Positions 609 to 31,700 of a stretch of DNA of 64,000 nt are shown here, in pieces (positions within the stretch are counted from its first letter, which is position 1; each line of letters begins with the position of its first letter). The DNA is taken from the IMG/VR virus record IMGVR_UViG_3300020123_000219, positions 1 to 64,000 of that record; one strand, given 5' to 3'. Position numbers and translations under genes: made by a program. This DNA comes from a virus. The notes under the pieces were generated by a model. That model did no database searches, was not told the DNA's origin, and saw only the letters and a list, made by a program, of their open reading frames with translations.

Positions 609-646
609 TGGCGCCTCCCTTATCCTGTAGGCTCTAACCTTATACT

Positions 647-780
647 GGCAGGTTTGGTCGTTACTGCCGTCGACGCCCCGCGACTGTCCCGGTCATGCCA
701 AGCCCGCTGCCGACTGGCCCACCCGCCGCTCCGTGCCGCACGCCGACTACCCGCGCCATCGCCCGCATTCCTCCACGTAG
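647..780 (+). repeat. Array 0: leader hairpin plus short CGAC-(NNNNC)n array, putative ncRNA
   Basis: Stem ggcag/ctgcc (647-668) with 12-nt loop gtttggtcgtta; CGAC at 671, 681, 711, 744; units such as tgtcc cggtc atgcc aagcc; TANNNT boxes at 635-646. Confidence 0.7.
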
Positions 781-833
781 TACCCGGATGCGTGGTACTA
801 TCCGCAAGTATCCGACCAGGGAAAGGAACAGGA

Positions 834-1082: not shown

Positions 1083-1084
1083 CC

Positions 1085-1204
1085 ATGACCGAGGAAACCT
1101 GCGTCTGCCAGATCGACGGCGGCCAATGCCAGAACAACGCCGTAACCGGCGACGACTACTGCAGCCTGTGCCTGAACGACAGGCACGCCCACCACAACAA
1201 CTGA
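1085..1204 (+). CDS. small Cys-rich protein
   Basis: MTEETCVCQIDGGQC...CSLC; closely packed with neighbours. Confidence 0.45.
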   Translation: MTEETCVCQIDGGQCQNNAVTGDDYCSLCLNDRHAHHNN

Positions 1205-1234
1205 GAACACGCGCCGGGAAAGGAAAACACGAAA

Positions 1235-2223: not shown

Positions 2224-2228
2224 CCGCT

Positions 2229-2486
2229 GTGAAACCCGCAGGCCCGATCACCGAACCCCACCCGATCGAAGAATGCTACGGGTCGAAACTCCACTGCTGG
2301 TCGCATGACGTTGACGAACCCGACCAGCCGGCCTACATCTCGTGTTTCGAGTGCAAGCACGTTTACCGGTCGGCTGAGGAACTAGTCGCCGAGCACAACA
2401 AGCACCTAGACCCGGCATGGAATGAACCTGCCGTGACAGACCCGGAACTTGTGCACTGCTGCCCCCTGTGCATCCACGACTGGTAA
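2229..2486 (+). CDS. small zinc-binding hypothetical protein
   Basis: GTG start; CFECKH and CPLCIHDW motifs. Confidence 0.6.
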   Translation: MKPAGPITEPHPIEECYGSKLHCWSHDVDEPDQPAYISCFECKHVYRSAEELVAEHNKHLDPAWNEPAVTDPELVHCCPLCIHDW

Positions 2487-2500
2487 CGAGCAAAGGAAAC

Positions 2501-2863
2501 ATGAAACTGTACCTGGCAGGCCCGATGCGCGGCTACCCCGAATTCAACCACCCGGCCTTCCACGCCGCCGCCGCCGAACTCCGCGCCTCCGGCCACGCAG
2601 TGTTCAACCCCGCCGAGCACGCCGAGTCACTCGGCATCAACACCACAGGAATGACCGGCGACCCCAGCCACGAAGAACTAGCCGGGTACTCGCTGCGGGA
2701 ACTCATCGCCGCCGACCTGGCCTGGATCTGCGCCAACGCCGAAGCGATCGCCCTGCTCCCCGGATGGCAGGACTCACTCGGCGCCGCAGCCGAGGTAGCA
2801 ACAGCCAAAGCACTCGGCATCCCGGTCGGGTACGCCCGGGACTTCCTCGCCAACCCCCGATGA
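2501..2863 (+). CDS. DUF4406 / nucleoside 2-deoxyribosyltransferase-like protein
   Basis: MKLYLAGPMRGYPEFNHPAF...FNPAE...LLPGWQDSLGAAAE matches the family pattern. Confidence 0.85.
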   Translation: MKLYLAGPMRGYPEFNHPAFHAAAAELRASGHAVFNPAEHAESLGINTTGMTGDPSHEELAGYSLRELIAADLAWICANAEAIALLPGWQDSLGAAAEVATAKALGIPVGYARDFLANPR

Positions 2864-3033
2864 CTAACCCTGACTGCGGCTGCGCTCGCGCAGCGGAACG
2901 CTGGAAGTTGAGGCCCAGGTCATCGCACGACCTGGGCCTCAACTGTGTCCCGGGGGTCTCGACCTGACCCGTGAACGGTGGTATGATCGGTACGGTAAGC
3001 GGCAGTGAAACAGAAACTATAAGGCTACAGGCA

Positions 3034-3360
3034 TTGGCTCGCACGCACATCGTGACCGACGACCTTGACGGAACCCCGGCCCAGGAGACCATCCAGTTCT
3101 CCATCAGCGGGAAGTATTACGAGATCGATTTGTCCCACGCGAACGCTGACACGTTCCGGGAAGTGTTCCAGCCGTGGATCGACGCGGCCAGGTCCCGGAA
3201 CCCGGCCCGGCAGCTTCCCCGGTCGCGGGATTCCCGCGCGGAGTCCGCTGCGATCCGTGACTGGGCCAGGCACACGGGCGTGGACGTGAAGGACCGGGGG
3301 AGGCTCCCGTCGGGCGTGAAACGCCAGTACTATAACCGGATCACTTCCGCCGCCGCTTAA
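3034..3360 (+). CDS. lsr2: Lsr2-family nucleoid-associated protein
   Basis: TDDLDG...YEIDLS dimerisation domain and IRDWAR...RGRLP AT-hook-like motif; TTG start inferred. Confidence 0.92.
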   Translation: MARTHIVTDDLDGTPAQETIQFSISGKYYEIDLSHANADTFREVFQPWIDAARSRNPARQLPRSRDSRAESAAIRDWARHTGVDVKDRGRLPSGVKRQYYNRITSAAA

Positions 3361-3371
3361 AAAAGAAACCT

Positions 3372-3690
3372 CCTGCCGGTACGGTCATCACGGCAGGCAG
3401 CAAACGACTCTCCATTCCAGTACAGGCCGCTGCGTGGCGACTTGTCCGACCAGGGCACGGCGCTTCGACTAATCGTCGCTATCCCGGTCGGCCCCGACTC
3501 TGCCATTCACGACCAACCCGATCCGACGGGTCCGTGCGCGCCGCCTCCCTCGCCGACATGTCAGGCCCACGCGCTTCATGACCGCCGACCTGTCAGACCC
3601 GCGCGTACCACAGCATGTGACTACCCTGCCCACGCCATTCCGTCGACGACTACGCGACTCCCTGCCCGCCCCACCCGCACCCGACTTCCC
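3372..3690 (+). repeat. Array 1: leader hairpin plus 9 units of YGAC-(NNNNC)4-5, putative ncRNA
   Basis: Stem cctgccg/cggcagg with loop gtacggtcatca; YGAC at 3405, 3438, 3466, 3495, 3524, 3554, 3586, 3618, 3647, 3682; nearly every pentamer ends in C. Confidence 0.9.
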
Positions 3691-4125
3691 TCACTCGTCA
3701 GAAGGACCGAAATCCTCAGGGAAAAGCACATCGGCTGTAGGCCATTCCCCGTGCGCGAAGAACTCGACTTCTGCCACGTCGTCCCTGCCCCGGAACACGA
3801 ACTTGCGGACGCGGGGGCACGCCCGCAGGTGCAGGCCGCCGCACCACATGCATCCCTCGCCGTTCGCGAACCGTTCCCGCACGGACGCCCGCTGTTCCTC
3901 GTCGAGGTCTTCAGGGTCCGCGCGTTCCGGCCCGGTCATCGGGTCCGCGAGCGCCTGCTCGCGGATGTCGGCGAACCCACGGAGGCGATCCTCGTGGCTG
4001 CGTATCATCGCCGCTGACAGGGCGATGGCGGGAGCGAGCTTGCTGACCTGGTCGTCGTCGAGGACGCGGCCGAGGGTTTTCCTGAGCACTGCTTCCAGCG
4101 CGGGCCATTCAGGTGAACCAGCCAT
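3691..4125 (-). CDS. hypothetical protein with CxxC...C motif
   Basis: SD AGGAAAGG; CMWCGGLHLRAC; fills the gap between arrays 1 and 2. Confidence 0.7.
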   Translation of the reverse strand: MAGSPEWPALEAVLRKTLGRVLDDDQVSKLAPAIALSAAMIRSHEDRLRGFADIREQALADPMTGPERADPEDLDEEQRASVRERFANGEGCMWCGGLHLRACPRVRKFVFRGRDDVAEVEFFAHGEWPTADVLFPEDFGPSDE

Positions 4126-4140
4126 GAGCGCCTTTCCTGA

Positions 4141-4146
4141 TACAAT
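4141..4146 (+). promoter_or_regulatory. putative -10 box for array 2
   Basis: TACAAT in an AT-rich patch 12 nt upstream of the leader hairpin. Confidence 0.45.
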
Positions 4147-4158
4147 TTAACTGACACG

Positions 4159-4830
4159 CCTGCCGGTACGGTCATCACGGCAGGAGACAAACGACCCTCC
4201 CTTGCCACGCGTGCTCCGACTCCGCCAGCCAGCTCCGGACAATAGCCGACTTCCCGCGCCTTTGCGGCTCGCCGCGACCACCCATGCCCGCGCCATTCCT
4301 TGCGCCGCCAACCGAGCCGACATGCCTGCCCGGCGCGTGACCCACTTCCGACATGACCCTCCCGTTCCCGCCACCCCCGACTCTCCGCTGCGACGCATAG
4401 CCCCGTGACTAACCGGTGCGGTACCGCCCATTGCCGACATGCCGCCGCCCGCGCCCGTCCCGTATCCGACCGGCCAGGCCATCACATGCCAGACCACCCG
4501 ACTTGCCGTTCCATTGCAGTCCCGGCCCGACCTCCCAGGCCGACTCGTCGCAAGCCCGACTCTCCATTCCTGCCCGATGCCGCGCCCCGACGTGCCGCGC
4601 CGCTCCTGCGCATGCGACTGCTCCGGGCATCACACTGCGAACCGACCAACCGCTCCTACGCGAAACGCTCCCGACTCCCCAGCTCAGGCCCACTCCCTTC
4701 CCGACTCCCCAGCTCAGCCCAGGCCCGACTTGCCTATCCGATCCCGCGCCGACCTGACTTGCCGGCCCGATCCCGCGCCGACATGCCGTTGCTGCGCCCT
4801 CCACCGCGACTCTCCATCGCCCTGCTGACC
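4159..4830 (+). repeat. Array 2: leader hairpin plus ~22 units of YGAC-(NNNNC)n, putative ncRNA
   Basis: 26-nt leader identical to array 1; YGAC mostly every 24-32 nt from 4192 to 4826; e.g. CGAC ttgcc gttcc attgc agtcc cggcc CGAC ctccc aggcc gactc gtcgc aagcc. Confidence 0.92.
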
Positions 4831-4831
4831 G

Positions 4832-6502
4832 CTACCGGAACAACGCCGACGCCGCGCCCTGAAACGGTGACGACACCTCCGCGTGCGCGAGCATGTCCCC
4901 CGCCGGGTACGGCTCCGGTTCCCCCTCATCCAGAACCGGGGCCTGCCGGCACTTCGGGCACGCCGGATGCCCCGCCCCGTAGTACTTGTGGCCGCAGAAC
5001 CCGCACTCCGCCACCCCGTACACGTCAGCCCACGACCCCGCCTGCCGCCAGAACGCCTGCACCACGGCGTCCCCCCGGTCCGTTGACCGGCCGATCCTGG
5101 CCCGGATCTCGTCCTTCGTCTCCATCCGCAGCACCCCGCCGGACAGCGGTTCCTTGCTGTGCGGCGCCGACAGGTCCGACAGCAGGTCCTCGTCATCAGG
5201 CAGGCACACCGTGGACCCAGCCGACGGGTCCAGCATCTCCCGCAGCCCGTACCAGGCCCCTACCCTGCAATTCAAGAAGGAAAGCTCGCCGGTCTTGTCC
5301 CTCTTCCGGGTCCGCGCGGACGCCGTGAACGGCTCGGCCCGCGCCCCCATCTCCCGCAGCCGGTCCAGCACCCCCGCCCCGATCCCGATCACGTCCACCA
5401 TCGCGGTCGCCTCCGGGTCCGCGTCGAGGATGCCCTTCACCCGCCCGGTCACCGCCATCGTGTCTTCCTTCGCGTACGTCCGCAGCTCGGTGATCACGTC
5501 GCCCTTGCGGATCGCTATCGCGGTCTTGTCCTCCCCCATACGCGCCGGGTCCACCCCGACCACGTGCGGCTCCCCCGCGTGCAGCAGCCCCGCGCCCTCC
5601 CGCTCGTACCAGCGTTCCACCGCCGCCTCGGCCCACGCCAGCGGAATGATCGCATCCTCATCTCCCGCGTAGAACTCGCCCAGCACGCGGTTCTGGTACA
5701 GCGACGAGATCTCGCCCCACTGCTTCTTCCGCTGGTCAGCCCACTGCTCGCTGATCCTCAGCGACGAGATCGCCTCAGCGAGGGTGACGTGCCGGGGCCG
5801 CCAGTCCTCGTAGCCGGGGCGGCGGGAGCAGATGTCGTAGAACCGTCCCTGCGGCTCCCCTGGCGTGGACAGCGCCAGGGCGTAGGCTTCCCCGGTCCCG
5901 GAGAACGCGCCCTCGCACGCGTCGAACGTGTTCGCGGGGATCGACTTCGACTCGTCGTAGATGAACAGGAGGCTGTCGGCGTGGCAGCCCTCGATCAGGG
6001 CCGGGTTGGAGCACGCGGCAGCGAACGCCTGCCCGTGCTGCAGGTTGACGTGCAGGGACAGCATCTCGCGGGGCTGCAGCGGGTAGTCCCGGATCTTCTC
6101 CCAGTTCAGCCGCTGCGACCATTTCCGGATCTCCGGCCACAGGTAGTGGATGAGCTGCCGCCACGCCCCTGCCGTGGTCACGATCTTCCAGTCCGTTCCG
6201 GTCGCGTCCCTGGTGAGCGCGAACCACCACACGGTCAGCGCCGCGATGCAGGACTTCCCGAGCCCGTGGGGGCCTCGCACCGCTTCCCGCTTGTGGAGGG
6301 ACAGCCCCCCGATGATGTCTTCCTGGTAGGGGGTCAGGCCGGGGCCGTCGCGGAAGTCGACGCAGTCATGGATGAACGCGACCGGGTCGTCGTAGTAGAC
6401 GGCGACGCCTTTCTTGACCTGCGCTGCGCGCTGCTTCAGTGACCGCAGGTAACGGAGGCGTTCGAGCCTGATCTCGTCGAGTGACCGTGGAGCCTGGTCC
6501 AA
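4832..6502 (-). CDS. terL: terminase large subunit
   Basis: Walker A RGPHGLGKS, Walker B LFIYDES, motif III LSTP, nuclease GVDPARMGED and STDRGDA. Confidence 0.93.
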   Translation of the reverse strand: MDQAPRSLDEIRLERLRYLRSLKQRAAQVKKGVAVYYDDPVAFIHDCVDFRDGPGLTPYQEDIIGGLSLHKREAVRGPHGLGKSCIAALTVWWFALTRDATGTDWKIVTTAGAWRQLIHYLWPEIRKWSQRLNWEKIRDYPLQPREMLSLHVNLQHGQAFAAACSNPALIEGCHADSLLFIYDESKSIPANTFDACEGAFSGTGEAYALALSTPGEPQGRFYDICSRRPGYEDWRPRHVTLAEAISSLRISEQWADQRKKQWGEISSLYQNRVLGEFYAGDEDAIIPLAWAEAAVERWYEREGAGLLHAGEPHVVGVDPARMGEDKTAIAIRKGDVITELRTYAKEDTMAVTGRVKGILDADPEATAMVDVIGIGAGVLDRLREMGARAEPFTASARTRKRDKTGELSFLNCRVGAWYGLREMLDPSAGSTVCLPDDEDLLSDLSAPHSKEPLSGGVLRMETKDEIRARIGRSTDRGDAVVQAFWRQAGSWADVYGVAECGFCGHKYYGAGHPACPKCRQAPVLDEGEPEPYPAGDMLAHAEVSSPFQGAASALFR

Positions 6503-6519
6503 TTACCTCCCTTACAGGG

Positions 6520-6822
6520 GTAACTGTACCGTCTCGCGGTGTCGGTGAGGAGTGCAGAGCAGGGACTTGGCCAGTCGGGCGCGGGACGCGCTGACGTGGA
6601 AAGTCGGGCGCGAGGGGAACTGGCCAGGCAAAGTCGGGGCGGAGCGGACAGCAACGGCTGGCGGAGTCGGGCCGGCGCTGGGCGGGATAGGCACGTCGGA
6701 ACGGGGCGGAGTGGACTGGCGGGACAAGTCGGTGTGGCAATGACCGGCCAGGACTAGTCGATTCGCCCGGAGCTGCGGTGAGTGGGATTGTCGTGACGGG
6801 ATGTAGCGACCGAACCATCCCG
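6520..6822 (-). repeat. Array 3: leader hairpin plus 8 units of CGAC-(NNNNC)5 on the minus strand, putative ncRNA
   Basis: Stem cgggatg/catcccg (6797-6822), minus-strand loop gttcggtcgcta; GTCG on + at 6541, 6574, 6603, 6633, 6666, 6695, 6728, 6757, 6790. Confidence 0.9.
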
Positions 6823-6836
6823 GTGAATACTTCCGG

Positions 6837-7388
6837 TCAGGAGGAGCTGACGACCCTGAGGTGCCGACCGTCACTGGCGGGACGTTTCGGCTTGGCCGCG
6901 CGCAGCTTCCCGGCCGTGGCCGTTGCCTTCTGCGGGGGCCACGGCTTGCCTGCTGCCTCGGCTTCCCTGCGGCGCCGCTCGGTGTTGTCCCGGGTGTTCT
7001 TCTTCTCGCAGTCAGTGCACTGGGTCCGCAGCTTTTCCGGGTGCTTCTTGTTCGCGTAGAACGTCAGCTCCGGGTTGTCGCGGACGTTGCGCTTGCAGGA
7101 GCTGCACGTCCGGGGCGGCGGCTCGGGGTCCTCGCCCCGCAGGGCGCGGGCCTCGTTCCTCATCTCCGCAGCGCTGCGCCTGGCCGCGCGGACCAGCACC
7201 TCGTGCTTGCGGACCGTGAGTTCGTCGCGGCGGCGGTCCCGCCGCGACCAGTCAGTTTCCAGCGTGATCAGCGCGTCGACCTTGGCCATGATCTCGTCGG
7301 CGTAGCCAGCGAGACCGAGCGCGAGCGTGCCTTTCAGGTCAGCCCGCGCTTCCAGTAGCTCTTTCGCGTAATCCCTTTCCGTTCCCAT
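6837..7388 (-). CDS. hypothetical zinc-binding protein
   Basis: CSSC...CTDC, basic C-terminus; TAGAAT upstream on the minus strand. Confidence 0.7.
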   Translation of the reverse strand: MGTERDYAKELLEARADLKGTLALGLAGYADEIMAKVDALITLETDWSRRDRRRDELTVRKHEVLVRAARRSAAEMRNEARALRGEDPEPPPRTCSSCKRNVRDNPELTFYANKKHPEKLRTQCTDCEKKNTRDNTERRRREAEAAGKPWPPQKATATAGKLRAAKPKRPASDGRHLRVVSSS

Positions 7389-12887: not shown

Positions 12888-15285
12888 ATGGCCGCCCTGA
12901 TAAGCACGGTAGCCACGCCTACCGCCGTGCACATCTTCGACACTAAGGTCGTTATCGTGGCCCAGGACGGCCAGGTCATCGAGATCGCACGGAAGCTGCC
13001 GGAGGTCCTGCGGAAACCGGAGAAGAAAGAATGACCTCCACCACGACCGCGACCATCTGGTGCGATGCCCCCGAGGGCTGTCCCGCCAACGTCACAGGGG
13101 CGACCATCCTCGACGCGCTCAGGGCAGCCGGGCGGCAAGGCTGGCAGACAGGCGACCACATGCACGGCGAAGCTGACCTATGCTCACACCACGCACCGCA
13201 GGGAAGGGACACCCCGTGCATCCCGCGCAGGAACTAGCCGAGGCAGCGGCGATCATGCGAGCAGACGCAGGGTTCTGCGGCCTCGTAGGGAAAGTACTCG
13301 ATGACGCAGCTACCGAATACGCCCAGCACTCCCCCGAAATCCAGGCCATCCTCGCCGGAACCGGGGACGCAGCCGACCTCCGCGTCGGCATCGCCCGCCA
13401 GATTCTGCAGCTGCCACGACCCGCTGGTGTTCGGGCACCAGTGCGCCGGGCACTGGACGGCACGGCAGGCACGCACCCTGTTCGAGAGATCGGCACTGCA
13501 GATGACCGGCGCGCTCAGGGACCTGAGCGCGACAATCGAGCAGGCCACCCGGAGCCTTGGTGAGCACCGCGTCGTCCAGCCGCCTGATCAGGGACGAGGG
13601 GAGCTGCGTCATCGCCGTCGAGGAAAGCAACCCTGACGGCACCGCGCAGGCACTGTGGGTCCGGGCCGGCAGGGTGTACGACGCCGGGAAGCTACGCGAC
13701 CAGCCCGGACTGTGGGTTCACTACCAGGAAGACTACATGCGGGCCACCCTCGACGGCCCCGTGCTCATCACTCCCGCCGTGTGGCGGCTCCTGGTGAAGG
13801 AAACCAACGCCAGGCTCAGGAAACAGAAACGGTACCTCCGCCGGTAACGGCGCAGGGAAAGGAAAACAAGTGGCAGGTAAGAAACCGTGCCCGCGATGCT
13901 GGTCCGCGCCCGGCTTCGGCTGCGAGCACGACCAGACCGCGCCCGGCATGCACGACACCGGGCGCACGCACACCATCAGGCTGGCAGGCAAGAACGAAAC
14001 CGTTCCCGTCCGCGTGTTCTGCGACGGACGGTGCACCACCTGCGGCGGCACCAGGGAGGTAGACGCATGACAGGCTCCCCGTTCCCCCCGCCCGAGTTCG
14101 AGGAAATCCGCGACCACGTCCGCGAGCACGGCGAACCCTACATCGGCGGGCTGTCCCTCAGGGGCACCGCAGACTCCGCTGTCATCTCCTGCGAGAACGG
14201 CTGCAACATCATCGACACCGGCAGGTTCACCGACTACCACTTCCTCTGCCGCAGGGCGATGGACCACGCAGGCGAAACCGGGCACAGCGTCGCCATCAGC
14301 TGCAGCCAGCAAGCCGTCTACGGCCCCTACACCTACGAGCCGTCGCCATGATCAGCGAAGTGCTGTCGTGCCCGGTCTGCGCCACCGAACTCGACGACGA
14401 GCAGTGGTGCACCGGCTGCGACCGGCACGTATCGGACGAGGAAATCGCGCAGCACCAGCGTATTTGGGGTGACATCTGGTATGAACCGCGCTAAGGAAGC
14501 CCGGATGAGGCAAGTGATCAGAAATGTTCTCTACCGCTTCAGCGACTGGCTGTGCGCCCATCAGCGAACCTTCGAGCTGGGCAACTGGCTCGGGGAACTT
14601 GGCTGGAAGCTGCGATGACCCACGCTAGCGGCCAGCGCATCGAAGTGATGCTGGTCGATCCTGACGACCCGGCGCGGGACATCGAGATCTTCGTCTACCC
14701 CGCACACCCTCCGCACGACCCCTGCGGAGACGGCGCATGCGGCTGCGCAGGGCGAAGCATGCTGCTGACCGACCAGCTCGGACGCGGGCTGCTAGACCAG
14801 CTGCACACGTTCTACGACCAGGGAATCCAGACGGTGAAGACCTATGAACCTCGTTAGCGAGCACATGATCGACGCCGCGTTCGCGGCCTACATAGAAGAT
14901 CACTGCCTCCCGTACATGGCCCGCGCCAGCGAGTACATCGACGACGACAGCACCGGGAGCCTGCGCGAGACCCAGATCGGGGAGCTGAGGGAAGCCGACC
15001 GGGAAGCCGACCGGATGAACCGGGAGTTCCTGCGGAAGGTTCTCGAAGCAGCGATGCGGGCGTGGGCAGCCGACGAGCACACCCGCCTGGGCGAGGAGAT
15101 CGAGGATGGAAGGTAACTGCACCGGGGTCACATCGACATGCACGTGCCTGTGCACTCCGTGCCTGGGCGGCGACCATTGCGACACGACCCATGACAAGTG
15201 ACCCGCTGCTGACCCCCGCCGAGCACGCGGTGCTGGACATCACCGAAATGCTCGCCGGGACGATGAAGAGGAAGAGGAAGAATGA
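12888..15285 (+). other. cluster of small hypothetical early genes (e.g. 13031-13237, 13557-13847, 13870-14070, 14067-14351, 14615-14857, 14844-15116)
   Basis: Short, translationally coupled ORFs, many with Cys/His pairs; no family recognised. Confidence 0.55.
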
Positions 15286-16331
15286 CGACTGCCAGCGTTG
15301 TCCGCGTCGCACCGCCCAGCCTCGAACGGCGGTCCCGCGAGCAGTGGCTGCAGCAGCGCCGGTCCGGGATCGGCGGGTCCGACATCGCGGCGATCCTCGG
15401 CTTCGATGACCGCCGGACCGCGCTGGACGTGTACTTCGACAAGAAAGGCATGGGCGAGGCCCGCCGCACCGCGCAGATGGACGAGGCCGCGCGGTTCGGG
15501 CACCTCCACGAGGAACTGGTCGCCCGCGAGTTCGCCCGCCGGGCCGGGCTCCGGCTCTACCCCTCTCCCGGGACGCTGGCCCGCGCCGACAAGCCGTGGA
15601 TGCGGGCCAGCATCGACCGGCTCGTCGCCACGCCCCCCGCCCGGCGTGCCCGCACCGTGAAAGTGCCCCTGGAAGTCAAGACCCGGTCCGCGTACCAGTC
15701 CCAGCAGTGGCAGGACGAGCCCGCCGACCCGCCCGCGATCCAGCTCCAGTGGTACCTCGCCGTCACCGGGGCCAGCCACGGCTACCTCGCCGCGCTCATC
15801 GGCGGGAACAGCCTGCGCTGGTACCGGGTGGCCCGGGACGACGAGCTGATCGGCATGCTCATCGACGCGGGCGAGGAATTCATGCAGCGCCTCGCCGACG
15901 ACAACCCGCCCCCGCCGGGCGGGTCACCGCGCACCGCCCTGCTGCTGGACTCGGTGTGGGACGCCGAGCCCGGCAGCTTCCTGAACCTGACCCCGGAACA
16001 GGCGTCGCACATGAGAGCCATGCGCACCGTGGTGAAAACGTGCGATGCCAGGATCGAGCGGGCCACGTGGCGCCGCGAGGCCGCGATCAACGACATGAAG
16101 ATGATCATGGGCGACGCGGAAGTCGCCGTCGCGGGCACCGAAGTGCTCGCCACCTGGCGCCGCAACGGCACGTTCCGGCAGAGATACCTGACCGCCGACC
16201 ACCCCGACATCGCCGCGAAGTACTCGAAGTCAACTGTGAAGATAGACACGAAACGGCTGCAGGAAGACGAACCTGACCTGTACCGTGCCTACCGCAGCCG
16301 CGCCTTCCGCATAGCAGACGGGACGACATGA
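15282..16331 (+). CDS. YqaJ-like viral recombinase exonuclease
   Basis: WLQQRRSGIGGSDIAAILG, ASIDR, LEVKT, QLQWYLAVTG. Confidence 0.93.
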   Translation: MTTASVVRVAPPSLERRSREQWLQQRRSGIGGSDIAAILGFDDRRTALDVYFDKKGMGEARRTAQMDEAARFGHLHEELVAREFARRAGLRLYPSPGTLARADKPWMRASIDRLVATPPARRARTVKVPLEVKTRSAYQSQQWQDEPADPPAIQLQWYLAVTGASHGYLAALIGGNSLRWYRVARDDELIGMLIDAGEEFMQRLADDNPPPPGGSPRTALLLDSVWDAEPGSFLNLTPEQASHMRAMRTVVKTCDARIERATWRREAAINDMKMIMGDAEVAVAGTEVLATWRRNGTFRQRYLTADHPDIAAKYSKSTVKIDTKRLQEDEPDLYRAYRSRAFRIADGTT

Positions 16332-16590: not shown

Positions 16591-17871
16591 ATGATCGACT
16601 CGAATCTACTGCTTGATCAGCCGGGAACGGTCGTCGCGGCGCTAGCGCGCAGAGGCGTTGCGTCGGATCTCGTCCTTTCCGCCAGGGATGCCCTGATCCT
16701 TCGCCGGACTATCTTGACTGAGGTCGAAGGGCTCCGCGCCGAGATGAACTCGCGCTCGAAGCAGGTCGGGAAACTGATCGCGGCCAACGATCCGAACGCC
16801 GCTGGCGAGCGCGAGGCGCTGGCGGACCTCAAGTCTCGTCTCGCCGAGAAAGAGGTCGCGTTTCGGGAGGCTGAGAGCAACTCACGATCGCTCCTGCTAG
16901 TCTTGCCGAACTTGCCCTCACCGAACGCACCAGATGGTCTCGACGAGTCGTGCAATGTTGTTCTCCGGGTCGAAGGACCTCCGGCTGACAAATACAACCC
17001 AGCGGACTACCGCCCGCACTGGGAGGTCGCGGGCGACCTTGGAATCTTCGATCCCGAGCGCGCCGCAAAGCTGAGCGGTTCTGGTTTCTCGTTGCTCTCT
17101 GGTGACGGGGCAAGGCTGATCCGTGCTCTCGTGCAGTTTGGCCTCGACCTCAACCGTGATAAATACCGTGAGGTCCTTGTCCCGCACATGGTGCGCAGCG
17201 AAGTCTTCGAAGGCACTGGTCACCTGCCTAAATTCGCCGATGACGCTTACAACACCACCCTGGACAATCTGTGGTTGATCCCGACCGGTGAGGTTCCACT
17301 GACCGGCATGCACCGAGGTGAGCTATTCGAACAAGATGAACTGCCGAAGCGTTATATGGCGTACTCGGTCTGCTTCAGGCGAGAAGCCGGATCGGCCGGG
17401 AAGGATACGCGAGGCCTTCAGCGGCTTCACGAGTTCCATAAGGTCGAGCTTGTTCGTATCTGTACGGCAGAGACGGTTCAAGACGAATTTGAGGGCCTGC
17501 TGGCGGATGCCGAGCGGCCTCTTCAGCTTCTGGAACTGCCTTACCGGGTTGTCGACCTGGCTGCGGGCGATCTTACGTTCTCGTCCTCACGCATCTTCGA
17601 CCTAGAGGTTCACTCGCCCGGCGTCGATCGCTGGCTCGAAGTCTCTTCAGTCGGAAACTTTACCGACTTCCAGCCCAGGCGAAGCAATATCCGATACCGC
17701 GCCGGAGCTGGTCAGACTAGGCCGCCCTACTACCTCAACGGATCGGCCATGGCTACTCCGCGGATGTGGGCCGCAATTATCGAGCACGGCCAAAGGGAGG
17801 ATGGCACGGTTGCGCTTCCTGAGCCGCTGGTGTCCTACATGGGCAAGAAAGTGCTGGAACCGGAGAAATAG
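16591..17871 (+). CDS. serS: seryl-tRNA synthetase
   Basis: N-terminal coiled-coil arm, GHLPKF, LIPTGEVPL, motif 2 FRREAGSAGKDTRGLQRLHEFHKVE, EVSS..NFTDFQ, motif 3 LNGSAMATPR. Confidence 0.97.
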   Translation: MIDSNLLLDQPGTVVAALARRGVASDLVLSARDALILRRTILTEVEGLRAEMNSRSKQVGKLIAANDPNAAGEREALADLKSRLAEKEVAFREAESNSRSLLLVLPNLPSPNAPDGLDESCNVVLRVEGPPADKYNPADYRPHWEVAGDLGIFDPERAAKLSGSGFSLLSGDGARLIRALVQFGLDLNRDKYREVLVPHMVRSEVFEGTGHLPKFADDAYNTTLDNLWLIPTGEVPLTGMHRGELFEQDELPKRYMAYSVCFRREAGSAGKDTRGLQRLHEFHKVELVRICTAETVQDEFEGLLADAERPLQLLELPYRVVDLAAGDLTFSSSRIFDLEVHSPGVDRWLEVSSVGNFTDFQPRRSNIRYRAGAGQTRPPYYLNGSAMATPRMWAAIIEHGQREDGTVALPEPLVSYMGKKVLEPEK

Positions 17872-18261: not shown

Positions 18262-19356
18262 TTGAGCCTCACTGACCGAGTCCGCGACGCCCGCAGCAGC
18301 AACCCCGGAACCGCCGTGGACGTGGTGAAGGAAAAGACCGCGACCATGCGGCACGTCCTGGACTCCATGTCCGGCGAGTTCGCGAAGGCGCTGCCCTCCC
18401 ACATCCCCCCTGCCCTGTTCATCCGCACCACCCTGACCTGCGTGCAGAAGTCGCCGCTGCTGCTGGACTGCACCGCCGAGTCGTTCCTCGGCGCGCTCAT
18501 GTCCTGCGCCACCCTCGGCCTCATGCCCGGCACCAAGGAAGCCGCGCTCGTCCCGTTCGGCAAGACCTGCACCCTGATCCCGCAATGGCAGGGAATGGTC
18601 AAGATGATGTACAACTCCGGGCAGGTCGAGTCCGTCATCGCCGAATTCATCTGCGAGAAAGACGAGTGGGCGTACGTCCCGTCGATGCGGCAGCCCGGCG
18701 ACTTCTTCCACCGGCCCTCGCAGGACGAGGACCGTGGCCATGTCATCCGCGCCTACGCGTTCGCGTGGCTCCTCAACGGGGGCAGGAGCCGCGTCTCCAT
18801 CCTCACCCGCACCCAGGCAGAGGAAATCAGGGACCGGTTCTCCAGGAACTACGCCCGCGCCGAGCAGAACGGCAAGCGGAACTCGACCTGGCACACCGAC
18901 TTCGACGCGATGTGGCGGAAGTCCGCGATCCGCAGGATCTGGGACTACGTCCCGTCGAGCGCGGAGATGCACGCGTTCAACTCCATGGCCGACGAGGACG
19001 GGGAGATCACCAGCACCTATGCCTCCCCCGCCCCGGCCAGGGTGAGCCCGGCTATCCCGGGCGAGGCACCGGGTGAGCTGGACGCTGCCGTGCCAGAGCT
19101 GGCGGAGCTGAACGCAATGTTCGGGACCTATTTCCCCGGTGCCGTTCCAGGTGACATACTCGAAATGAGGTCGGAATTCACCGGACGCGACATCGCGGAC
19201 GTTTCCATGCTAGACGCGGCTGATATAGGTGATATGATGGACGCGTTCAGGACGGCCGAAGCGACCACCGAGTCAGCGGACCCGGCCGAGGTAGCGACCG
19301 CGTTCCGCGAGCTGCTCACCTACGCAGCAGCAGGACCGCCTGAGACCAGGAACTGA
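18262..19356 (+). CDS. recT: RecT-family ssDNA annealing protein
   Basis: ALPSHI...SFLGALMSCATLGLMP...LVPFG and WHTDFDAMWRKSAIRR; YqaJ nearby. Confidence 0.92.
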   Translation: MSLTDRVRDARSSNPGTAVDVVKEKTATMRHVLDSMSGEFAKALPSHIPPALFIRTTLTCVQKSPLLLDCTAESFLGALMSCATLGLMPGTKEAALVPFGKTCTLIPQWQGMVKMMYNSGQVESVIAEFICEKDEWAYVPSMRQPGDFFHRPSQDEDRGHVIRAYAFAWLLNGGRSRVSILTRTQAEEIRDRFSRNYARAEQNGKRNSTWHTDFDAMWRKSAIRRIWDYVPSSAEMHAFNSMADEDGEITSTYASPAPARVSPAIPGEAPGELDAAVPELAELNAMFGTYFPGAVPGDILEMRSEFTGRDIADVSMLDAADIGDMMDAFRTAEATTESADPAEVATAFRELLTYAAAGPPETRN

Positions 19357-19373: not shown

Positions 19374-19928
19374 ATGGCAAGACGCGACTACGTGGCCGAC
19401 ATGACGGCCTACATCAAGGAACGCATCCCTGAAGGGGACTACGTCACGGCCAAGGTGGCGAAGCTGATCTTCGAGCAGGTCAAATCCGACGACCCTGACC
19501 TGCTCAGCGGCTGGCTCATGGCCTGCGGGCCGTCGCTGATCAGCAGGCAGATCGGCCACGCCCGCCTCGCGAGCCACGCGACCGCGCGCCGGTCCCTGAA
19601 GAGGGAACGGTTCGCGGCGGCGGCAGCGGCCTTCAGCCAGGGAAACCCCGAGCCGCTGAAAGATTACCTGGACGAGCTGCAGTACCGCACCGCCGGTAAC
19701 GTGATCAAGAAACTGGGGAACCTGACCAGCGCGGACTGCCGGTTCATCGCGTCGACCTGCCACGAGGCGTCCGCTACCTACAACTTCGAGGCCGTCTTCA
19801 TGGACGCGCTCGCACGCAAGGTACCGGAAGGGGTCGTGCGGGACCACCTCACCGACGAGCAGGTCGCCGAGCTGAGGTCCAACGTGGCTGACGCGATCCA
19901 GCGCAGGTCGGCTGTCATCAGCGCCTGA
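19374..19928 (+). CDS. hypothetical helical protein, upstream neighbour of the RAMP-like gene
   Basis: SD, good coding bias, no family recognised. Confidence 0.75.
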   Translation: MARRDYVADMTAYIKERIPEGDYVTAKVAKLIFEQVKSDDPDLLSGWLMACGPSLISRQIGHARLASHATARRSLKRERFAAAAAAFSQGNPEPLKDYLDELQYRTAGNVIKKLGNLTSADCRFIASTCHEASATYNFEAVFMDALARKVPEGVVRDHLTDEQVAELRSNVADAIQRRSAVISA

Positions 19929-19960: not shown

Positions 19961-20833
19961 GTGGCTGTTGCCATTCCCCCGGCCGGGAACGTGTTCAAGG
20001 AATATGACGAGCGCGCATGGCCGTACAAGTTCACCGTCGGATTCCGCATCGGCGCCATCGCCGGCGGCATCCCCTCCGACCCGATGATCGCCGAGTCATG
20101 GATCAAGACGAAGATCGCGGGGAAAAGCGAGGAAGATTACCGGGCCATGGTCGCGCAGACCATGCTGGACCGCAACGTGACCCTCGACGAGGCCGTAGCC
20201 CAGGCCAACATCATGAAGAACCTGAACGGGTTCAAGCGGGACACCGAGCTGGGCATGTACATCGAGGGCCGGCAGGTCAAGGCAGCGATGAAGGAAGCAG
20301 TGTCCGTTGCCTGCGCGTCCCCGGAGAACAAGCTGGACATCAGGTCATGGGGCAACACCCGCAAGTACCTGACCAACTACCTCCCCGAGCACGTGTTCGT
20401 CGACGACCTGCGGGTCTACCTGTTCCACGCCTCCGACCACCCCCGCGAGGGCTGCGCCTCGGACTGCGAGGACTGCAAGGAAGGACGCGTGTACAAGGCA
20501 GGCGACCCGTTCCACGAGAAGACCCGGGTGATGCAGACCTTCCCGGTGAACGAGAAGACCCGCCAGTCAGGCATCCAGTACACCGAAGTGTGCGAGGACG
20601 TGTACATCGAGTTCACGGTCCGCACCGACCACCCGTTCACCTACGAAGAGTGGGCGATGATCTGGCTGACCGGCCAGTACCAGGGCGTCGGCGCGCTGCG
20701 GGCGATGGGCATGGGCGTCTACGAGCCCGTCAAGTTCACGCAGATCCGGGGACCGGCCATCAAGAAGGCCGGCAAGTCCGGCGGCCCCAAGAAAAAGGAA
20801 GCCGCAGGCGCAGGCGAGGATGAAGAAGACTGA
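19961..20833 (+). CDS. RAMP / Cas7 (Csm3)-like RNA-binding protein
   Basis: N-terminal strand + AIAGG; MYIEGRQVKAAMKEA resembles xIPGSSxKGxxR; C-terminal G-rich loop GVGALRAMGMG; HxxxxCxxxCxxC insertion. Confidence 0.7.
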   Translation: MAVAIPPAGNVFKEYDERAWPYKFTVGFRIGAIAGGIPSDPMIAESWIKTKIAGKSEEDYRAMVAQTMLDRNVTLDEAVAQANIMKNLNGFKRDTELGMYIEGRQVKAAMKEAVSVACASPENKLDIRSWGNTRKYLTNYLPEHVFVDDLRVYLFHASDHPREGCASDCEDCKEGRVYKAGDPFHEKTRVMQTFPVNEKTRQSGIQYTEVCEDVYIEFTVRTDHPFTYEEWAMIWLTGQYQGVGALRAMGMGVYEPVKFTQIRGPAIKKAGKSGGPKKKEAAGAGEDEED

Positions 20834-27315: not shown

Positions 27316-28697
27316 GCGCCCTCCCAGATCGTGATCAGCCGGCAGGAGTAGTTACCCGACCCAAGGAGGGTCGCGCCGAGCCCGCTGGTGTCGTGCTGGA
27401 ACCCGGCCAGCGCTATCGCGTCGCCTGCGTTGAGCCTGAGGTACCGGGTGACGGTGCACGCGGTGACCAGTCCCTCGACCGAGGCGGCCGGGTCGGAGTT
27501 GACGGCGGACTGGCCTCCGCCCCACAGCGTGAACGTGGTCCCGGAGTTGTAGTTCGCTGACGTGATGGTGAGCCCTGCCGCCGCGACTGTGGTAGTGGCG
27601 TTGCTGGCGATGGCCACGCACCCGTGCGCGTAGTACAGGCCGCCGACCGGGGCAATCCACCCGTTCGAGTTCGACGCGCTGTAGTTATCCATGGTCGCCG
27701 AGAACAGCTGGATAGGCTGCCCGATCGCCGGCAGGCCGGTGGACGAGCCCAGCGGGATCGGGGAACCGCCCAGGTACTGGCGCTGCATGACCGGCGGGTA
27801 CAGCAGGAACGCGGCAGCGTCCCTGACGTTCTTGTTGAAGAACGGCGCGTCAACGGGGACGCTCACCGCCGCCCCCGACGCGTGCGCGTGCGCGGCAGGC
27901 GTGATCGGCACGGTCCCGGACGCTGCCGGGCCGGTCATCACGACGTTCTCAGCGGCCGGGGTGCCGATGTCAAGGCCCAGCGTGGTGCCCTGCCCGCCGT
28001 AGAACGTCATCCCGGTCAGCGACGCGGGCACCATCTGGGTGCCTCCGGCCGCGACCGTGCCGGTCAGGGTGGTGGACGGCGGCGGGAACGCGTCGTTCGA
28101 CGGGACAGGCAGCGGCGCGGTGCCGGACAGCGCGCACACCCACCGGCAGGCCAGGCGCGGGAACCTGGACGTGCCGTTCAGCAGCGGCCAGGAGAACGCT
28201 CCCGTGCCGGTCTGGTTCACCGACATCGCGATGAAATCTCCGGAGCCGCCGACCACCCCGGTCACCGCGATCTGGCACAGCCGCGCCCCCGATGCCACGG
28301 AGAAGCTGCCTGACGTGTTCGGCATCCGCATACCGAACTTCGTGGTCGCCGTGCCGTTCTGCTGCGCCTGCACGCCGACCGCGAACGCCCCCCCGCCGCC
28401 CGTGTAGTTCAGCGGCGCGGTCACCTCGGCCAGGTACCAGCCGGGGAACTGGCCGAAGTACTGGGCGCTGTCGGTGGTCAGGAAATGCCCGCTGACCGAG
28501 TCCGCGACCTCGGTGTCCAGGGTGACTGGCGTGTTCGTGTCGGCGGTGATCACCTGGCTGGTGAGGGTCTGGGCGCCGATGAACATGGGCGGGTGCGACA
28601 GCAGCTGGATGGTGCCCGCGAAGTCCGCTCGCAGCTGCGGCGCGGTGATCACCTCGGCGGTGGACCAGGTGGACGGCTGCGGCAGGTAAAGCGACAC
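27312..28697 (-). CDS. minor tail protein
   Basis: Two repeated beta domains, G/T/A-rich, tail operon position. Confidence 0.75.
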   Translation of the reverse strand: MSLYLPQPSTWSTAEVITAPQLRADFAGTIQLLSHPPMFIGAQTLTSQVITADTNTPVTLDTEVADSVSGHFLTTDSAQYFGQFPGWYLAEVTAPLNYTGGGGAFAVGVQAQQNGTATTKFGMRMPNTSGSFSVASGARLCQIAVTGVVGGSGDFIAMSVNQTGTGAFSWPLLNGTSRFPRLACRWVCALSGTAPLPVPSNDAFPPPSTTLTGTVAAGGTQMVPASLTGMTFYGGQGTTLGLDIGTPAAENVVMTGPAASGTVPITPAAHAHASGAAVSVPVDAPFFNKNVRDAAAFLLYPPVMQRQYLGGSPIPLGSSTGLPAIGQPIQLFSATMDNYSASNSNGWIAPVGGLYYAHGCVAIASNATTTVAAAGLTITSANYNSGTTFTLWGGGQSAVNSDPAASVEGLVTACTVTRYLRLNAGDAIALAGFQHDTSGLGATLLGSGNYSCRLITIWEGA

Positions 28698-28700
28698 CGG

Positions 28701-31700
28701 TCACCACGCCAGCGTGTTCAGGCCGTTGAGCAGCCCCAGCGTCGTGCTGCCCAGCTGCAGCGCCGCCGCCTCAGGCGCGTTGTCGATGATGCAGGTCACG
28801 GACGCTGACACCTCGCCTTTCACCCCGAACGCCCAGCGGCGCTGGGTCTGCGTCACCCGCCCTGTGATGGAGATGACCGGGTTCCCCGCCCCGAACGGCC
28901 TGCGGTTCACCGTCACCAGGTCACCCACCGACACCCCGAGAACGAACCGCCACCGGAACGGGGACGCCTGCGCCGTCACGGTCACGTGGTTGAGCCGCAG
29001 GTCCGGCGCCGCGTACGTGTTCGCGAGCCAGTTCGCGAGGTCGAGCAGACCGGGGCCGTAGTTCAGCGCGACCCTGGTGTCGCCGTTCAGGTAGCCGGTG
29101 GCGAAGTTCGTGACGCAGCCGTACTGCTTCTGCGAGGCGTCGACCAGCGCCGTGTCGGCGGGCACGACATCGTCCTGCGTGTCGAGCTGGGTGAGCTGGA
29201 TCTCGTTCTGGATGCGGGTCAGGTCGTAGTCGAACGAGATGTCCGGCTCGTAGTGGAACTCCCCGGCGAAAGATTCCTCTCCTAGCACCCACTGCACTGC
29301 CTGGTTCCAGGCAGCCTGCCTGGAAAGCGACACCAGGTCACCGGTCGGCGCAACGTAGAACATGCCGGGCAGCACGGCCTGCGCGATGTTGCTGACCGAC
29401 TGCGACGTTGGCTCTCCCGGTATGTCCTGGCAGGACACGACCGGGGTGACGTAAATGCCGCCCTGCTTGCCGATGGCCCTGCGGCCCGGCGCGTTGTCGC
29501 CGCCCTGCAGCAGCCGCTCGATCCGGTTCTGCGACGGCTCGCCCGCCAGCCCGGTCAGGCCGGCCTTGTAATGGGTCAGGATTCTCTGCTGCGGGAGCAG
29601 GAACGGGAACACCGCGAGCTGGCCGGTGCTGCCGTTGAAATTCAGGCTGCTGATCCCCGCCGCGTTCGAGGTCCCGTTCAGCCAGATGAACGAGAAGTCC
29701 TGCGGAAGGTGCGGAGATCCCCACGACCCGGACCCGGCCTGCTGGCCGTTCAGGTACACGGTCCACGCGGTCCTGTTGAACGTGATCACGACCTGGGTCA
29801 TCGGCGGGGTGCCAGGCGTCAGCGTGTACACCGTCGACCCGATCGTGGTCAGGCTTGCCCCGTTATGCCAGGACATGTGCAGGCCCGCCGACAAGGTGTC
29901 GGCGTAAAAGCCGAAGATCTGCCCGGCCGTGTTCCCCACCGTCATCAGCGACGGCTGCTGGAGGCTGAACGGGCTCTGCATCTGGAACCAGAACTCGATG
30001 GACACCCCGCCCGCTATCGGCGGGAACGTGCTGGTGGAAGCCACGAGGGTGTACCCGCTGTTCGCGCTGAGCGCGCCGACGTTCGTCAGCTGCCACATGC
30101 CCTCGCCGACCGTGACCCGGAACGTCGGGTTGATCAGCAGCGTCGACGAGGTCCCGACCAGCGTGGTCGCGGGGGTGCTCCCGAACTGCTGCTGGATTCC
30201 GCCGGCCCCGTATTTCGACTGCGTCACCGTCAGCGGCACGTTGCTGCCCTGCGCGAGGTTCGCTGCCGCTGACGCTCCCTGCGCGTCCGCGCACGGCCAG
30301 TAGTGAGACGGGTTGTCGTGCAGGACCTCGGTGGACATGATCGGCTGCGGCTCGCAGTTCATCGCGAACCACGCGTCGGTGACCGTGGCCTCGGTGAAAC
30401 CCCGGTACGTCTCGTCCCACTGCTGCGGCAGCCGCTCGATGTTCCCCGAGTACGGCAGGTACCACGGGGTGGCCCACGGCGGTCCCAGCGGGTCGGGCTT
30501 CCACTGCCCCGTCACGGTCACGGTCGCGCCGTTCGCGGCGGTCCACGGCACCGCCGGGGGAAGCAGCAGCCAGCCGGGCACGGACGGGTACGGCGCGGAC
30601 GCAGCCCGGAACGCGGCGTTGACCGGCGGTATCCCGTTGGCCTGGACCGTGATCACCGCCTGCACCGTGCCTGACGGGGCGATGCCGGTGACGATCGCCA
30701 GCGTCGCAAGGGGGCTGGTCACCGGAGCGGACGCCGCTGTCCCGAGCGGGGTGCCGCTCCCGTTCTGGAACGTGATCACCAGCGACACTCCCGCTGCCCA
30801 CGGCACCGAGCACGCGAGCCACGCCGGGAACGAGTACGTGGCCCCGGCGGTCGCTGGGATGGTCACCGATCCCTGCGCCTGAGGGTTCGCCGTGAAGCCG
30901 TTCCCGGTGAACGACACCTGCCACGACCCGCCGGTCCACGCGGTCCGCAGCCGTACCGGGGTGCCCGCGTTGATGCCGGCCAGCGACCCGGACCCGGGCG
31001 GCAGGAACGACCCGGTCGGGTTGTCGAACAGCAGCGTTCCCTCGCCCGTGGACAGCTGCGCCGTCTCGTACTGCCTGCCCTGCGTGATCTCCAGCGCCAT
31101 CGACGCGGTCGTCACCGGCACCCACGTCATGTTGTCGGGCATCGTCTGGAACCCGGAGCCGGGCGCCATCTCGAAGTACGTCACCGGCCAGTTCGACAGC
31201 GGCCTGGCCGGCGCGGCTGCCGCGCACAGCATCCCCCCGAGCCCGACCGCGAAGTTCACCGTGCCCGTCGAGTTCCACGTCGCCGAGCACGCCGTCGTGG
31301 TGTACTGCCATGCGGCCGAGCACTGGATGTCAGCGGAGTCGTCCACGCCGTTGCTGCCGGTCACGGTCGCCACCGGGGACCACAGGCCGCCGGGCGCGAG
31401 GGTGACCGTGTCGGTCAGGTTGTCCGACGCGGCCACGGTGACCGCGAACTGCTGGCTCACCGGGGCGGGCAGGCTCCCTGTGATGGCGGTGACTGAGTTC
31501 CCGAAGCCCGTGGCTGCCATGGTGTTCACCCACGGAGCCATGTTGGCCACGTTCCAGATGATCGCCGCGAATGCGGTGGTGTAGCTGTTCGGGGCCACGA
31601 ACACCGTGGTCTGCGGCGGCAGCCCGGAGTCTTTCGGCGGCGCGGTAACCCTGGCAGCCGGGGCACGCCACACGGAGCACCGGACCAGGCCCTGGTCCGA

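What the first reader, a model, noticed from the sequence alone, without database searches (positions are those of the whole stretch)
19961..20833. Orphan Cas7-like protein with a zinc-finger insertion and a basic/acidic tail
It carries the helix-1 motif (YIEGRQVKAAMKEA), the G-rich loop (GVGALRAMGMG), an HxxxxCxxxCxxC insertion, a thumb-like segment (QTFPVNEKTRQSGIQYTE) and a K-rich then acidic tail. Even without the arrays, a solo phage Cas7 is notable, for example as an anti-CRISPR decoy subunit.
Basis: partly seen in the sequence, partly recalled or inferred. Interest (0 to 1): 0.75.

Follow-up and report, generated by a model that had tools for sequence, protein, structure and literature searches.

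The report
Phage VIPR-like guide-RNA RAMP protein
The gene encodes a real Cas7-like protein, but it is not an orphan: its family travels in phages with a helper gene and arrays of five-base repeats, which makes it a divergent form of the CRISPR-like "VIPR" RNA-guided DNA-silencing systems first described in 2026 preprints.

Summary
The 290-aa ORF at 19961-20833 (+) is real. It matches no Pfam, PHROG or NCBIfam model, and about 800 homologue clusters exist.

"Orphan" and "anti-CRISPR decoy" do not hold. In 54 of 72 related loci a ~185-aa helical protein, the homologue of window 19374-19928, lies just upstream. In 55 of 63 loci a period-5 array lies within 1.5 kb on the gene's strand. The array units are CGAC followed by 4-10 pentamers of the form NN-B-Y-C.

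This is the architecture of VIPR systems (Vipr RAMP, Vap protein, pentanucleotide vrRNAs; bioRxiv 2026). One guide conserved among relatives was read with the published 1-nt-skip rule. It hits 71 IMG/VR contigs, against 0-6 for the controls. Of those hits, 49 lie on the HEXXH site of HTH-ImmA/IrrE switch genes.

In this phage the same kind of array lies 13-19 kb away, around terL.

Differences from published VIPR:
- a C-type repeat instead of GGY;
- short CGAC-delimited units;
- displaced arrays;
- a lineage-specific Zn-knuckle insertion.

This scan has already found VIPR systems in about 20 other genomes. Verdict: a new variant of a known kind.

The parts
19961..20833 (+). Vipr-like RAMP protein (290 aa) with a lineage-specific His/Cys knuckle insertion and a K-rich/acidic tail
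   Evidence: ORF. No Pfam, PHROG or NCBIfam hit. AF2 model and Cas7-type fold matches. hhalign to type II Vipr profile E 4.8e-4.
19374..19928 (+). Vap-like accessory protein (184 aa, all-helical, no known family)
   Evidence: A homologue lies upstream of the RAMP gene in 54 of 72 loci. AF2 pLDDT 93.6. No informative fold match.
646..812 (+). Array 0: hairpin with a 12-nt loop (646-669), then a few CGAC-delimited pentamer units
   Evidence: Sequence display; fold. This is the weakest of the four arrays.
3372..3690 (+). Array 1: hairpin (3372-3397), then CGAC + (NNBYC)n units, directly after lsr2
   Evidence: Lsr2 by Pfam
4159..4830 (+). Array 2: the same hairpin (4159-4184), then about 25 CGAC/TGAC-delimited units; it ends at the terL stop codon
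   Evidence: TRF period 29 at 4727-4782
6544..6823 (-). Array 3: hairpin (6798-6821), then 8 units of 29-33 nt, ending just before the terL ribosome-binding site
   Evidence: terL by PHROG

Best explanation
The ORF encodes the RAMP subunit of a divergent VIPR-type system (Viral Interference Programmable Repeat). By analogy with the published SUSP1 system, copies of the protein would polymerise head-to-tail along an RNA made from pentanucleotide-repeat arrays, with one protomer per 5-nt repeat. Each protomer would hold the constant part of the repeat and expose the two variable bases. The complex would then bind double-stranded DNA whose sequence matches those dinucleotides with one base skipped between them, usually the codon wobble position, and would silence genes of competing phages or prophages. 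The upstream 184-aa helical protein is the accessory (Vap-like) partner.

Shown here:
- the RAMP fold;
- the conserved gene pair;
- the conserved, strand-fixed linkage to CGAC + (NN-B-Y-C)n arrays in relatives;
- arrays of the same kind in this phage;
- a 1-nt-skip match of one conserved relative guide to ImmA/IrrE genes.

Inferred:
- that RNA is made from the arrays, and from which strand (I favour the C-rich strand, about 2:1);
- RNP formation and DNA silencing;
- that this phage's distant arrays feed this protein in trans.
For: (1) Fold. The matches are only Cas7-type RAMPs. Viral RAMP-like proteins appear in BFVD at E 3e-10 to 3e-6.

(2) Remote homology to the SUSP1/type II Vipr profile. 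hhalign gives E 4.8e-4 over 135 collinear columns from helix-1 to the G-loop. The GxG-x-R...G G-loop is shared.

(3) Locus. A two-gene module sits in phage contigs, and the partner is present in 54 of 72 loci. The record itself is a phage with terL, tail genes and RecE/RecT.

(4) Arrays. 55 of 63 non-redundant loci with flanks have a same-strand period-5 array within 1.5 kb. 354 of 2186 near windows score as array against 5 of 8015 far windows. 809 units lie on the gene's strand against 63 on the other. The CGAC delimiter and the pentamer logo persist down to 25-32% protein identity, including Microcystis phage Mae-JY09.

(5) Code. Positions 1-2 of the pentamer are compositionally uniform, position 4 is Y, and position 5 is C in about 96%. 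Homologous units in related phages keep positions 1-2 and vary at 3-4.

(6) Targeting. The guide shared by L018, L020, L029 and L072, read with a 1-nt skip, gives 71 IMG/VR hits. The 0-skip reading gives 6, the 2-skip reading gives 0, and a reversed-order control gives 5. 49 of the 71 hits encode HELGHLVM in HTH + Peptidase_M78 genes, with the skipped base at the wobble position.

(7) Self-assembly. A three-copy model supports head-to-tail contacts. The score is 0.64 and the best of 3 controls is 0.00. That mark was reached by 20 of 30 proteins solved as pairs of one chain and by 1 of 23 solved as single chains. The runs agree in at least 61% of contacts, and partner pLDDT is at least 73. This pass may partly reflect the model's memory of Cas7 filaments.

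(8) Published VIPR biology was read.
Against: - There is no array next to the gene in this window. The nearest is about 13 kb away.
- The A1 HMM finds nothing in the SUSP1 genome, and the hhalign probability is only 32%.
- The repeat is not GGY/NN.
- By the low-confidence hhalign alignment, the SUSP1 G-binding residues D177 and W178 correspond to A245 and L246, and R138 corresponds to T208.
- Units are 4-10 pentamers without a per-unit structured tail. Five pentamers give only 10 informative bases.
- The transcribed strand is unknown.
- The window's own guides gave no convincing target.
- Nothing here shows expression.
Confidence: 0.8

Rival explanations
1. The arrays are DNA-level elements such as iterons or packaging and regulatory sites around terL. 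The RAMP-like protein binds them directly as DNA, with no guide RNA involved.
For: In this phage the arrays bracket terL. A 5-bp period is half a helical turn. No RNA evidence is available. Lsr2, a DNA-binding silencer, lies next to array 1.
Against: In most relatives the arrays sit between or after the two system genes, not near terL. The orientation relative to the gene is fixed at 809:63, as expected for a transcript. The variable dinucleotides match foreign genes by the published RNA-guide rule. RAMPs are RNA-binding proteins.
Confidence: 0.08
2. An anti-CRISPR decoy: a solo Cas7 mimic that poisons host type I or type III effector complexes.
For: The fold resembles Csm3/Cas7, and the model supports self-association.
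Against: The protein has its own conserved partner and its own arrays. There is no sequence similarity to any host Cas7 profile. The family is large and old, with 812 clusters at 50% identity, which does not look like a recent capture of a host subunit.
Confidence: 0.03
3. A recombination accessory: a single-strand-binding protein working with the neighbouring RecE/RecT module.
For: In the window the gene lies two genes after recT and before PNKP-phosphatase-like and VRR-NUC genes.
Against: RecT is found near the gene in only 7 of 86 loci. The only conserved neighbours are the 184-aa partner and the arrays.
Confidence: 0.03
4. A degenerate CRISPR remnant, such as a type IV-like or mini-Cascade fragment that has lost its other parts.
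Against: No CRISPR repeats were found. No cas genes appear among the conserved neighbours. The period is 5 nt, not the 6 nt of CRISPR Cas7 backbones, and the arrays are not repeat-spacer arrays.
Confidence: 0.03

Closest known systems
VIPR type II system of Escherichia phage SUSP1 (vipr, vap1, vrRNAs; bioRxiv 10.64898/2026.04.26.720920 and .720927)
   Same: Both have a small phage-encoded RAMP with helix-1, thumb and G-loop. Both form a two-gene operon with an accessory protein and carry flanking tandem pentanucleotide arrays, with two variable bases per repeat. Predicted targets follow the 1-nt-skip rule with the skipped base at the wobble position. Targets are lysis-lysogeny regulators of other elements.
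   Different: - No HMM-level similarity; hhalign only reaches E 4.8e-4.
- The protein is longer (222-290 aa against 195 aa) and has an extra helical insert after strand 1.
- On the gene's strand the repeat is NN-B-Y-C, not YNNGG. In SUSP1 the YNNGG repeats are on the vipr strand.
- Units are 4-10 repeats separated by CGAC, not 9-16 repeats plus a pseudoknot tail.
- The partner is an unrelated 184-aa helical protein.
- In this phage the arrays lie 13-19 kb from the genes.
Non-canonical VIPR-like arrays (GAC/NN, CAC/NN, WGT/NN, TGH/NN) reported from a genomic language model survey (bioRxiv 10.64898/2026.10.21.760802); also the NNNGG, YNNNG and NNNNG variants named in the first preprint
   Same: Period-5 arrays with a non-GGY constant part lie next to a Vipr-like fold. 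Read on the opposite strand, the present repeat is V-N-N-G-R, close to the NNNGG variant.
   Different: Those clusters are described as about 10 repeats per unit. A CGAC-delimited, C-terminated pentamer is not named in the text I could read. The figures were not available, so identity with one of types I-VII cannot be excluded.
CRISPR Cas7-family backbone subunits (Csm3, Cmr4, type VII Cas7, Csf2)
   Same: An RRM-based RAMP fold, a G-rich loop, a thumb, and predicted head-to-tail polymerisation along a guide.
   Different: No cas neighbours, no repeat-spacer array, and no match to any Cas profile. The nucleotide period is 5 rather than 6.

Membership tests
VIPR system (Vipr RAMP) | RAMP fold with RRM core, helix-1, thumb and glycine-rich loop | tested here: met
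   AF2 model. Foldseek and VIA-align match only Cas7-type RAMPs at the top. Motif positions are in alignment A1.
VIPR system (Vipr RAMP) | Sequence homology to described Vipr proteins (SUSP1 / X1U2U4 clade) | tested here: inconclusive
   The A1 HMM gives no hit in the SUSP1 genome at E<=10. Profile-profile hhalign gives E 4.8e-4 and probability 32% over 135 collinear columns.
VIPR system (Vipr RAMP) | Minimal locus: vipr plus one accessory (vap) gene, without cas genes | tested here: met
   The partner family is upstream in 54 of 72 loci, and there is no other conserved neighbour.
VIPR system (Vipr RAMP) | Mostly carried by phages and prophages | tested here: met
   The window is an IMG/VR phage record with terL, tail genes and RecE/RecT. 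70 viral loci and 15 genome loci were found.
VIPR system (Vipr RAMP) | Tandem pentanucleotide-repeat arrays flanking the gene | tested here: met
   Relatives: 55 of 63 loci have an array within 1.5 kb. In the window itself the arrays are of the same kind but lie at 646-6823, not adjacent to the gene.
VIPR system (Vipr RAMP) | Repeat consensus GGY/NN (YNNGG) on the vrRNA strand | tested here: not met
   The logo on the gene's strand is N-N-B-Y-C, and on the opposite strand V-N-N-G-R. The preprint allows a 'related consensus', so this marks a variant rather than an exclusion.
VIPR system (Vipr RAMP) | vrRNA of 9-16 repeats followed by a conserved structured 3' tail | tested here: not met
   Units are 4-10 pentamers (mode 5-6) separated by CGAC. 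In the window there is one hairpin per array, and no such hairpin was found in most relatives (7 of 80 arrays).
VIPR system (Vipr RAMP) | Targets specified by the NN dinucleotides with a 1-nt skip, the skip falling on codon wobble positions | tested here: met
   One conserved guide of relatives gives 71 hits against 6 (0-skip), 0 (2-skip) and 5 (reversed order). 49 of the 71 lie in the ImmA/IrrE HEXXH codons. The window's own guides were inconclusive.
VIPR system (Vipr RAMP) | Guanine-recognition residues of SUSP1 Vipr (D177, W178, R138) | tested here: not met
   By the hhalign alignment they correspond to A245, L246 (S in most relatives) and T208. R179 corresponds to the invariant R247. The alignment has low confidence.
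VIPR system (Vipr RAMP) | Array transcribed, and RNA co-purifies with the protein as a filament with one protomer per repeat | not testable with these tools
   The only related result is a three-copy model that supports head-to-tail contacts (score 0.64, best control 0.00).
CRISPR-Cas Cas7 (class 1 backbone subunit) | Match to a Cas7/Csm3/Cmr4 sequence profile | tested here: not met
   No Pfam or NCBIfam hit. PADLOC gives only a Cas6 G-loop fragment at E 0.022.
CRISPR-Cas Cas7 (class 1 backbone subunit) | Linked to other cas genes and a repeat-spacer CRISPR array | tested here: not met
   No CRISPR family or repeat array in the window. No cas-like conserved neighbours in 86 loci.

The most novel reading that the evidence does not exclude
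This is a separate, undescribed VIPR lineage, mainly of actinobacterial phages. Its protein reads a cytosine-terminated pentamer (NN-B-Y-C) instead of GGY. It uses very short guides (4-10 repeats) strung together with CGAC punctuation. In this phage, hairpin-led guide arrays are dispersed around the terminase gene and supplied in trans to a Vipr that has gained a zinc knuckle. Such a system would show that the RAMP pocket can be re-specified for a different constant trinucleotide, and that guide arrays and effector genes can be uncoupled within one genome.
Probability: 0.35. Interest if true: 0.7.

Novelty: new variant of a known kind. Interest (0 to 1): 0.55.

Why it matters
VIPR systems are a months-old discovery proposed as the ancestors of CRISPR effectors. 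Only the GGY-type SUSP1 and P. fulva systems have been studied experimentally.

This family has more than 800 clusters, is common in soil actinobacterial phages, and also occurs in a cyanophage. It offers a natural variant with a different constant motif, different punctuation and an unrelated accessory protein. That makes it useful for three things:
- working out how the RAMP pocket sets repeat specificity;
- finding how short a guide can be;
- developing compact programmable DNA binders for high-GC hosts such as Streptomyces.

The predicted targeting of the catalytic HEXXH codons of ImmA/IrrE switch proteases suggests a concrete and testable mode of inter-prophage warfare.

For annotation, several hundred "hypothetical proteins", together with the gaps next to them that have no annotated gene, can now be named.

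Tried and rejected
- Sequence searches of the target against Pfam, PHROGs, NCBIfam and PDB sequences gave nothing useful.
Context was obtained with the search for related loci instead.
- A simple lag-5 autocorrelation scan failed to pick out the arrays. It was replaced by a run-of-pentamers coverage measure.
- A strict YNNGG scan of the window found no arrays.
- Exact-match target searches of all 801 units under eight rules, against the 1.4 Mb of loci in hand, showed no enrichment over shuffles. The database was too small.
- The window's longest guide (unit at 4275, 16 informative bases) gave 43 IMG/VR hits, about what chance predicts. Four of them fall in one family A DNA polymerase gene of high-GC phages, which I treat as a lead only.
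- Window guides with 12 informative bases gave no self-targets or clustered hits.
- No RNA holder was listed among the sequencing runs. Metagenome contigs laid on 3300-7000 showed only near-identical fragments.
- The consensus scan found no promoter-like sites and no terminators beyond the number expected by chance, so it did not settle the transcribed strand.
- The hairpin energies are individually unremarkable, with z between -2.3 and +0.8.
- RecT linkage was considered and dropped (7 of 86 loci).

Full report
**Observation.** The ORF at 19961-20833 (+) is a 290-aa GTG-started gene in an 88-kb IMG/VR phage record. The record carries a large terminase, a minor tail protein, a RecE-like exonuclease and RecT. 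In an alignment of 40 homologues, helix-1 (R104, K107, K111, E112) and the G-rich loop (G242, A245, R247, G252) are invariant. The His/Cys insertion (H160, C165, C169, C172) occurs only in the window protein and in one 80%-identical relative. The charged tail is a variable appendage.

**Fold.** The protein matches no Pfam, PHROG or NCBIfam model. PADLOC gives only a marginal Cas6 G-loop fragment, and PDB sequences give nothing. It has 342 close homologues and 812 clusters at 50% identity, and every source name shown for them is 'hypothetical protein'.
- An AlphaFold model built on the alignment has pLDDT 78 and pTM 0.75.
- Foldseek against the PDB returns 35 matches at E<=1e-3. The listed ones are Csm3, Cmr4 and type VII Cas7 chains, with the best at E 5e-5.
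- BFVD returns viral RAMP-like proteins.

**Context in relatives.** I fetched 70 viral and 15 genomic loci, plus Microcystis phage Mae-JY09. All-against-all clustering of neighbouring ORFs found one conserved neighbour only, a ~185-aa protein homologous to window 19374-19928. It lies upstream in 54 of 72 loci that have upstream DNA. It is all-helical (pLDDT 93.6) and has no informative structural match. RecT is nearby in only 7 of 86 loci, so the recombination context of the window is incidental.

**The VIPR literature.** A literature search led to the 2026 preprints on VIPR systems. These are phage-borne modules with three parts:
- a minimal RAMP (Vipr);
- an accessory Vap;
- vrRNAs made of tandem YNNGG pentamers.

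Vipr protomers bind one per repeat and hold GGY. The exposed NN dinucleotides recognise dsDNA with one base skipped per pair, usually the codon wobble base.

Earlier notes on this window reported arrays with a 5-nt cytosine period at 647-6822, so I tested the link.

**Arrays in the window.** The window holds four arrays: 646-812 (+), 3372-3690 (+), 4159-4830 (+) and 6544-6823 (-). Each starts with a 7-bp hairpin with a conserved 12-nt loop. Units of CGAC plus pentamers ending in C follow.

**Arrays in relatives.** Relatives carry the same thing immediately beside the RAMP gene. This explains the roughly 500-nt 'gap' between the partner gene and the RAMP gene in most loci.
- 55 of 63 non-redundant loci with flanks have a same-strand array within 1.5 kb.
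- 354 of 2186 nearby windows score as array, against 5 of 8015 distant windows.
- 809 units lie on the gene's strand and 63 on the other.
- The CGAC punctuation persists at 25-32% protein identity.

**The repeat code.** The pentamer logo is uniform at positions 1-2, C-biased at position 3, Y at position 4 and C at position 5. Homologous units in related phages keep positions 1-2 and drift at 3-4. This is the VIPR logic of two informative bases plus a constant part.

**Homology to Vipr.** I located the SUSP1 locus: vipr at 28477-29061 (-) and vap1 downstream, with YNNGG arrays on the same strand.
- The family HMM finds nothing in SUSP1.
- A profile of type II Viprs aligns to the family profile with E 4.8e-4 and probability 32%, over 135 collinear columns from helix-1 to the G-loop.
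- In that low-confidence alignment the guanine-binding D177 and W178 correspond to A245 and L246, while R179 corresponds to the invariant R247. That pattern is consistent with a changed constant motif.

**Targeting test.** One guide is conserved in four relatives (L018, L020, L029, L072). Its dinucleotides are TG AT AC AG TG CC AG TC TG. Exact searches of IMG/VR gave:
- 71 matches with a 1-nt skip;
- 6 matches with no skip;
- 0 matches with a 2-nt skip;
- 5 matches for the same dinucleotides in reversed order.

Of the 71 hits, 49 encode HELGHLVM, the HEXXH site of HTH + Peptidase_M78 (ImmA/IrrE) proteins, with the skipped base at the wobble position. This reproduces the published rule and the published preference for lysis-lysogeny regulators. 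The window's own guides are mostly too short for such scans. The one that could be scanned gave chance-level results.

**Self-assembly.** A three-copy model supports head-to-tail contacts. The score is 0.64 and the best of 3 controls is 0.00. That mark was reached by 20 of 30 proteins solved as pairs of one chain and by 1 of 23 solved as single chains. The runs agree in at least 61% of contacts, and partner pLDDT is at least 73. This may reflect likeness to Cas7 filaments.

**Open points.**
- The transcribed strand is unknown. The C-rich strand runs in the same direction as the system genes in relatives, and as an upstream gene or AT-rich box for all three main window arrays. Read on the opposite strand, the repeat is V-N-N-G-R, and the hairpin would then sit at the 3' end as in canonical vrRNAs.
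- I could not see the preprint's figures. I therefore cannot tell whether this family is already one of its seven types.
- This scan has recorded VIPR systems in about 20 other genomes, but none with this protein.

**Verdict.** 'Orphan' and 'decoy' are wrong. The gene is the effector of a divergent VIPR-type system whose guide arrays in this phage lie around terL.

Noticed in passing
window 16591-17871: A complete seryl-tRNA synthetase gene sits between the RecE-like exonuclease (15282-16331) and recT (18262-19356) of the phage. This is unusual cargo for such a module.
   Followed up: no
window 2971-3360: An Lsr2 homologue (dimerisation and DNA-binding domains, Pfam) ends 11 nt before the hairpin of array 1. 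A xenogeneic silencer sits next to a guide array.
   Followed up: partly
window 6651 (array 3): Contigs from two soil or rhizosphere metagenome runs carry a 10-nt deletion here, exactly two pentamers. This suggests that arrays change length in whole repeat steps.
   Followed up: no
L018:9406, L020:9576, L029:9732, L072:9738: Four different phages or prophages share one guide. Its dinucleotides match the HEXXH codons of HTH-ImmA/IrrE regulator genes in 49 IMG/VR contigs.
   Followed up: yes
window 4275-4318; L183, L190, L195, L196: [quoted passage not shown] This may be a real target or may be chance.
   Followed up: partly
L001 (Microcystis phage Mae-JY09, PP395641.1, 37713-38976): A cultured cyanophage carries a 25%-identical family member, annotated as hypothetical. 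A CGAC-delimited pentamer array follows it at the genome end. This is a tractable model outside the actinobacteria.
   Followed up: partly
alignment A1, proteins P0046 and P0109: Two relatives have a different Cys-rich insertion (C-x2-C-x6-C) at another loop, just before helix-1. Metal-knuckle insertions seem to arise repeatedly in this family.
   Followed up: no
L046 and L047: Here the gene order is reversed, with the RAMP gene first and the partner second. Arrays lie on both sides in opposite orientations.
   Followed up: no
window 646-669, 3372-3397, 4159-4184, 6798-6821: All four window arrays are headed by hairpins. The stems differ but the 12-nt loop is conserved (G-T-W-Y/T-G-G-T-C-R-Y-Y-A). 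Such hairpins were found at only 4 of 77 arrays in relatives, so they appear specific to this phage's displaced arrays.
   Followed up: partly
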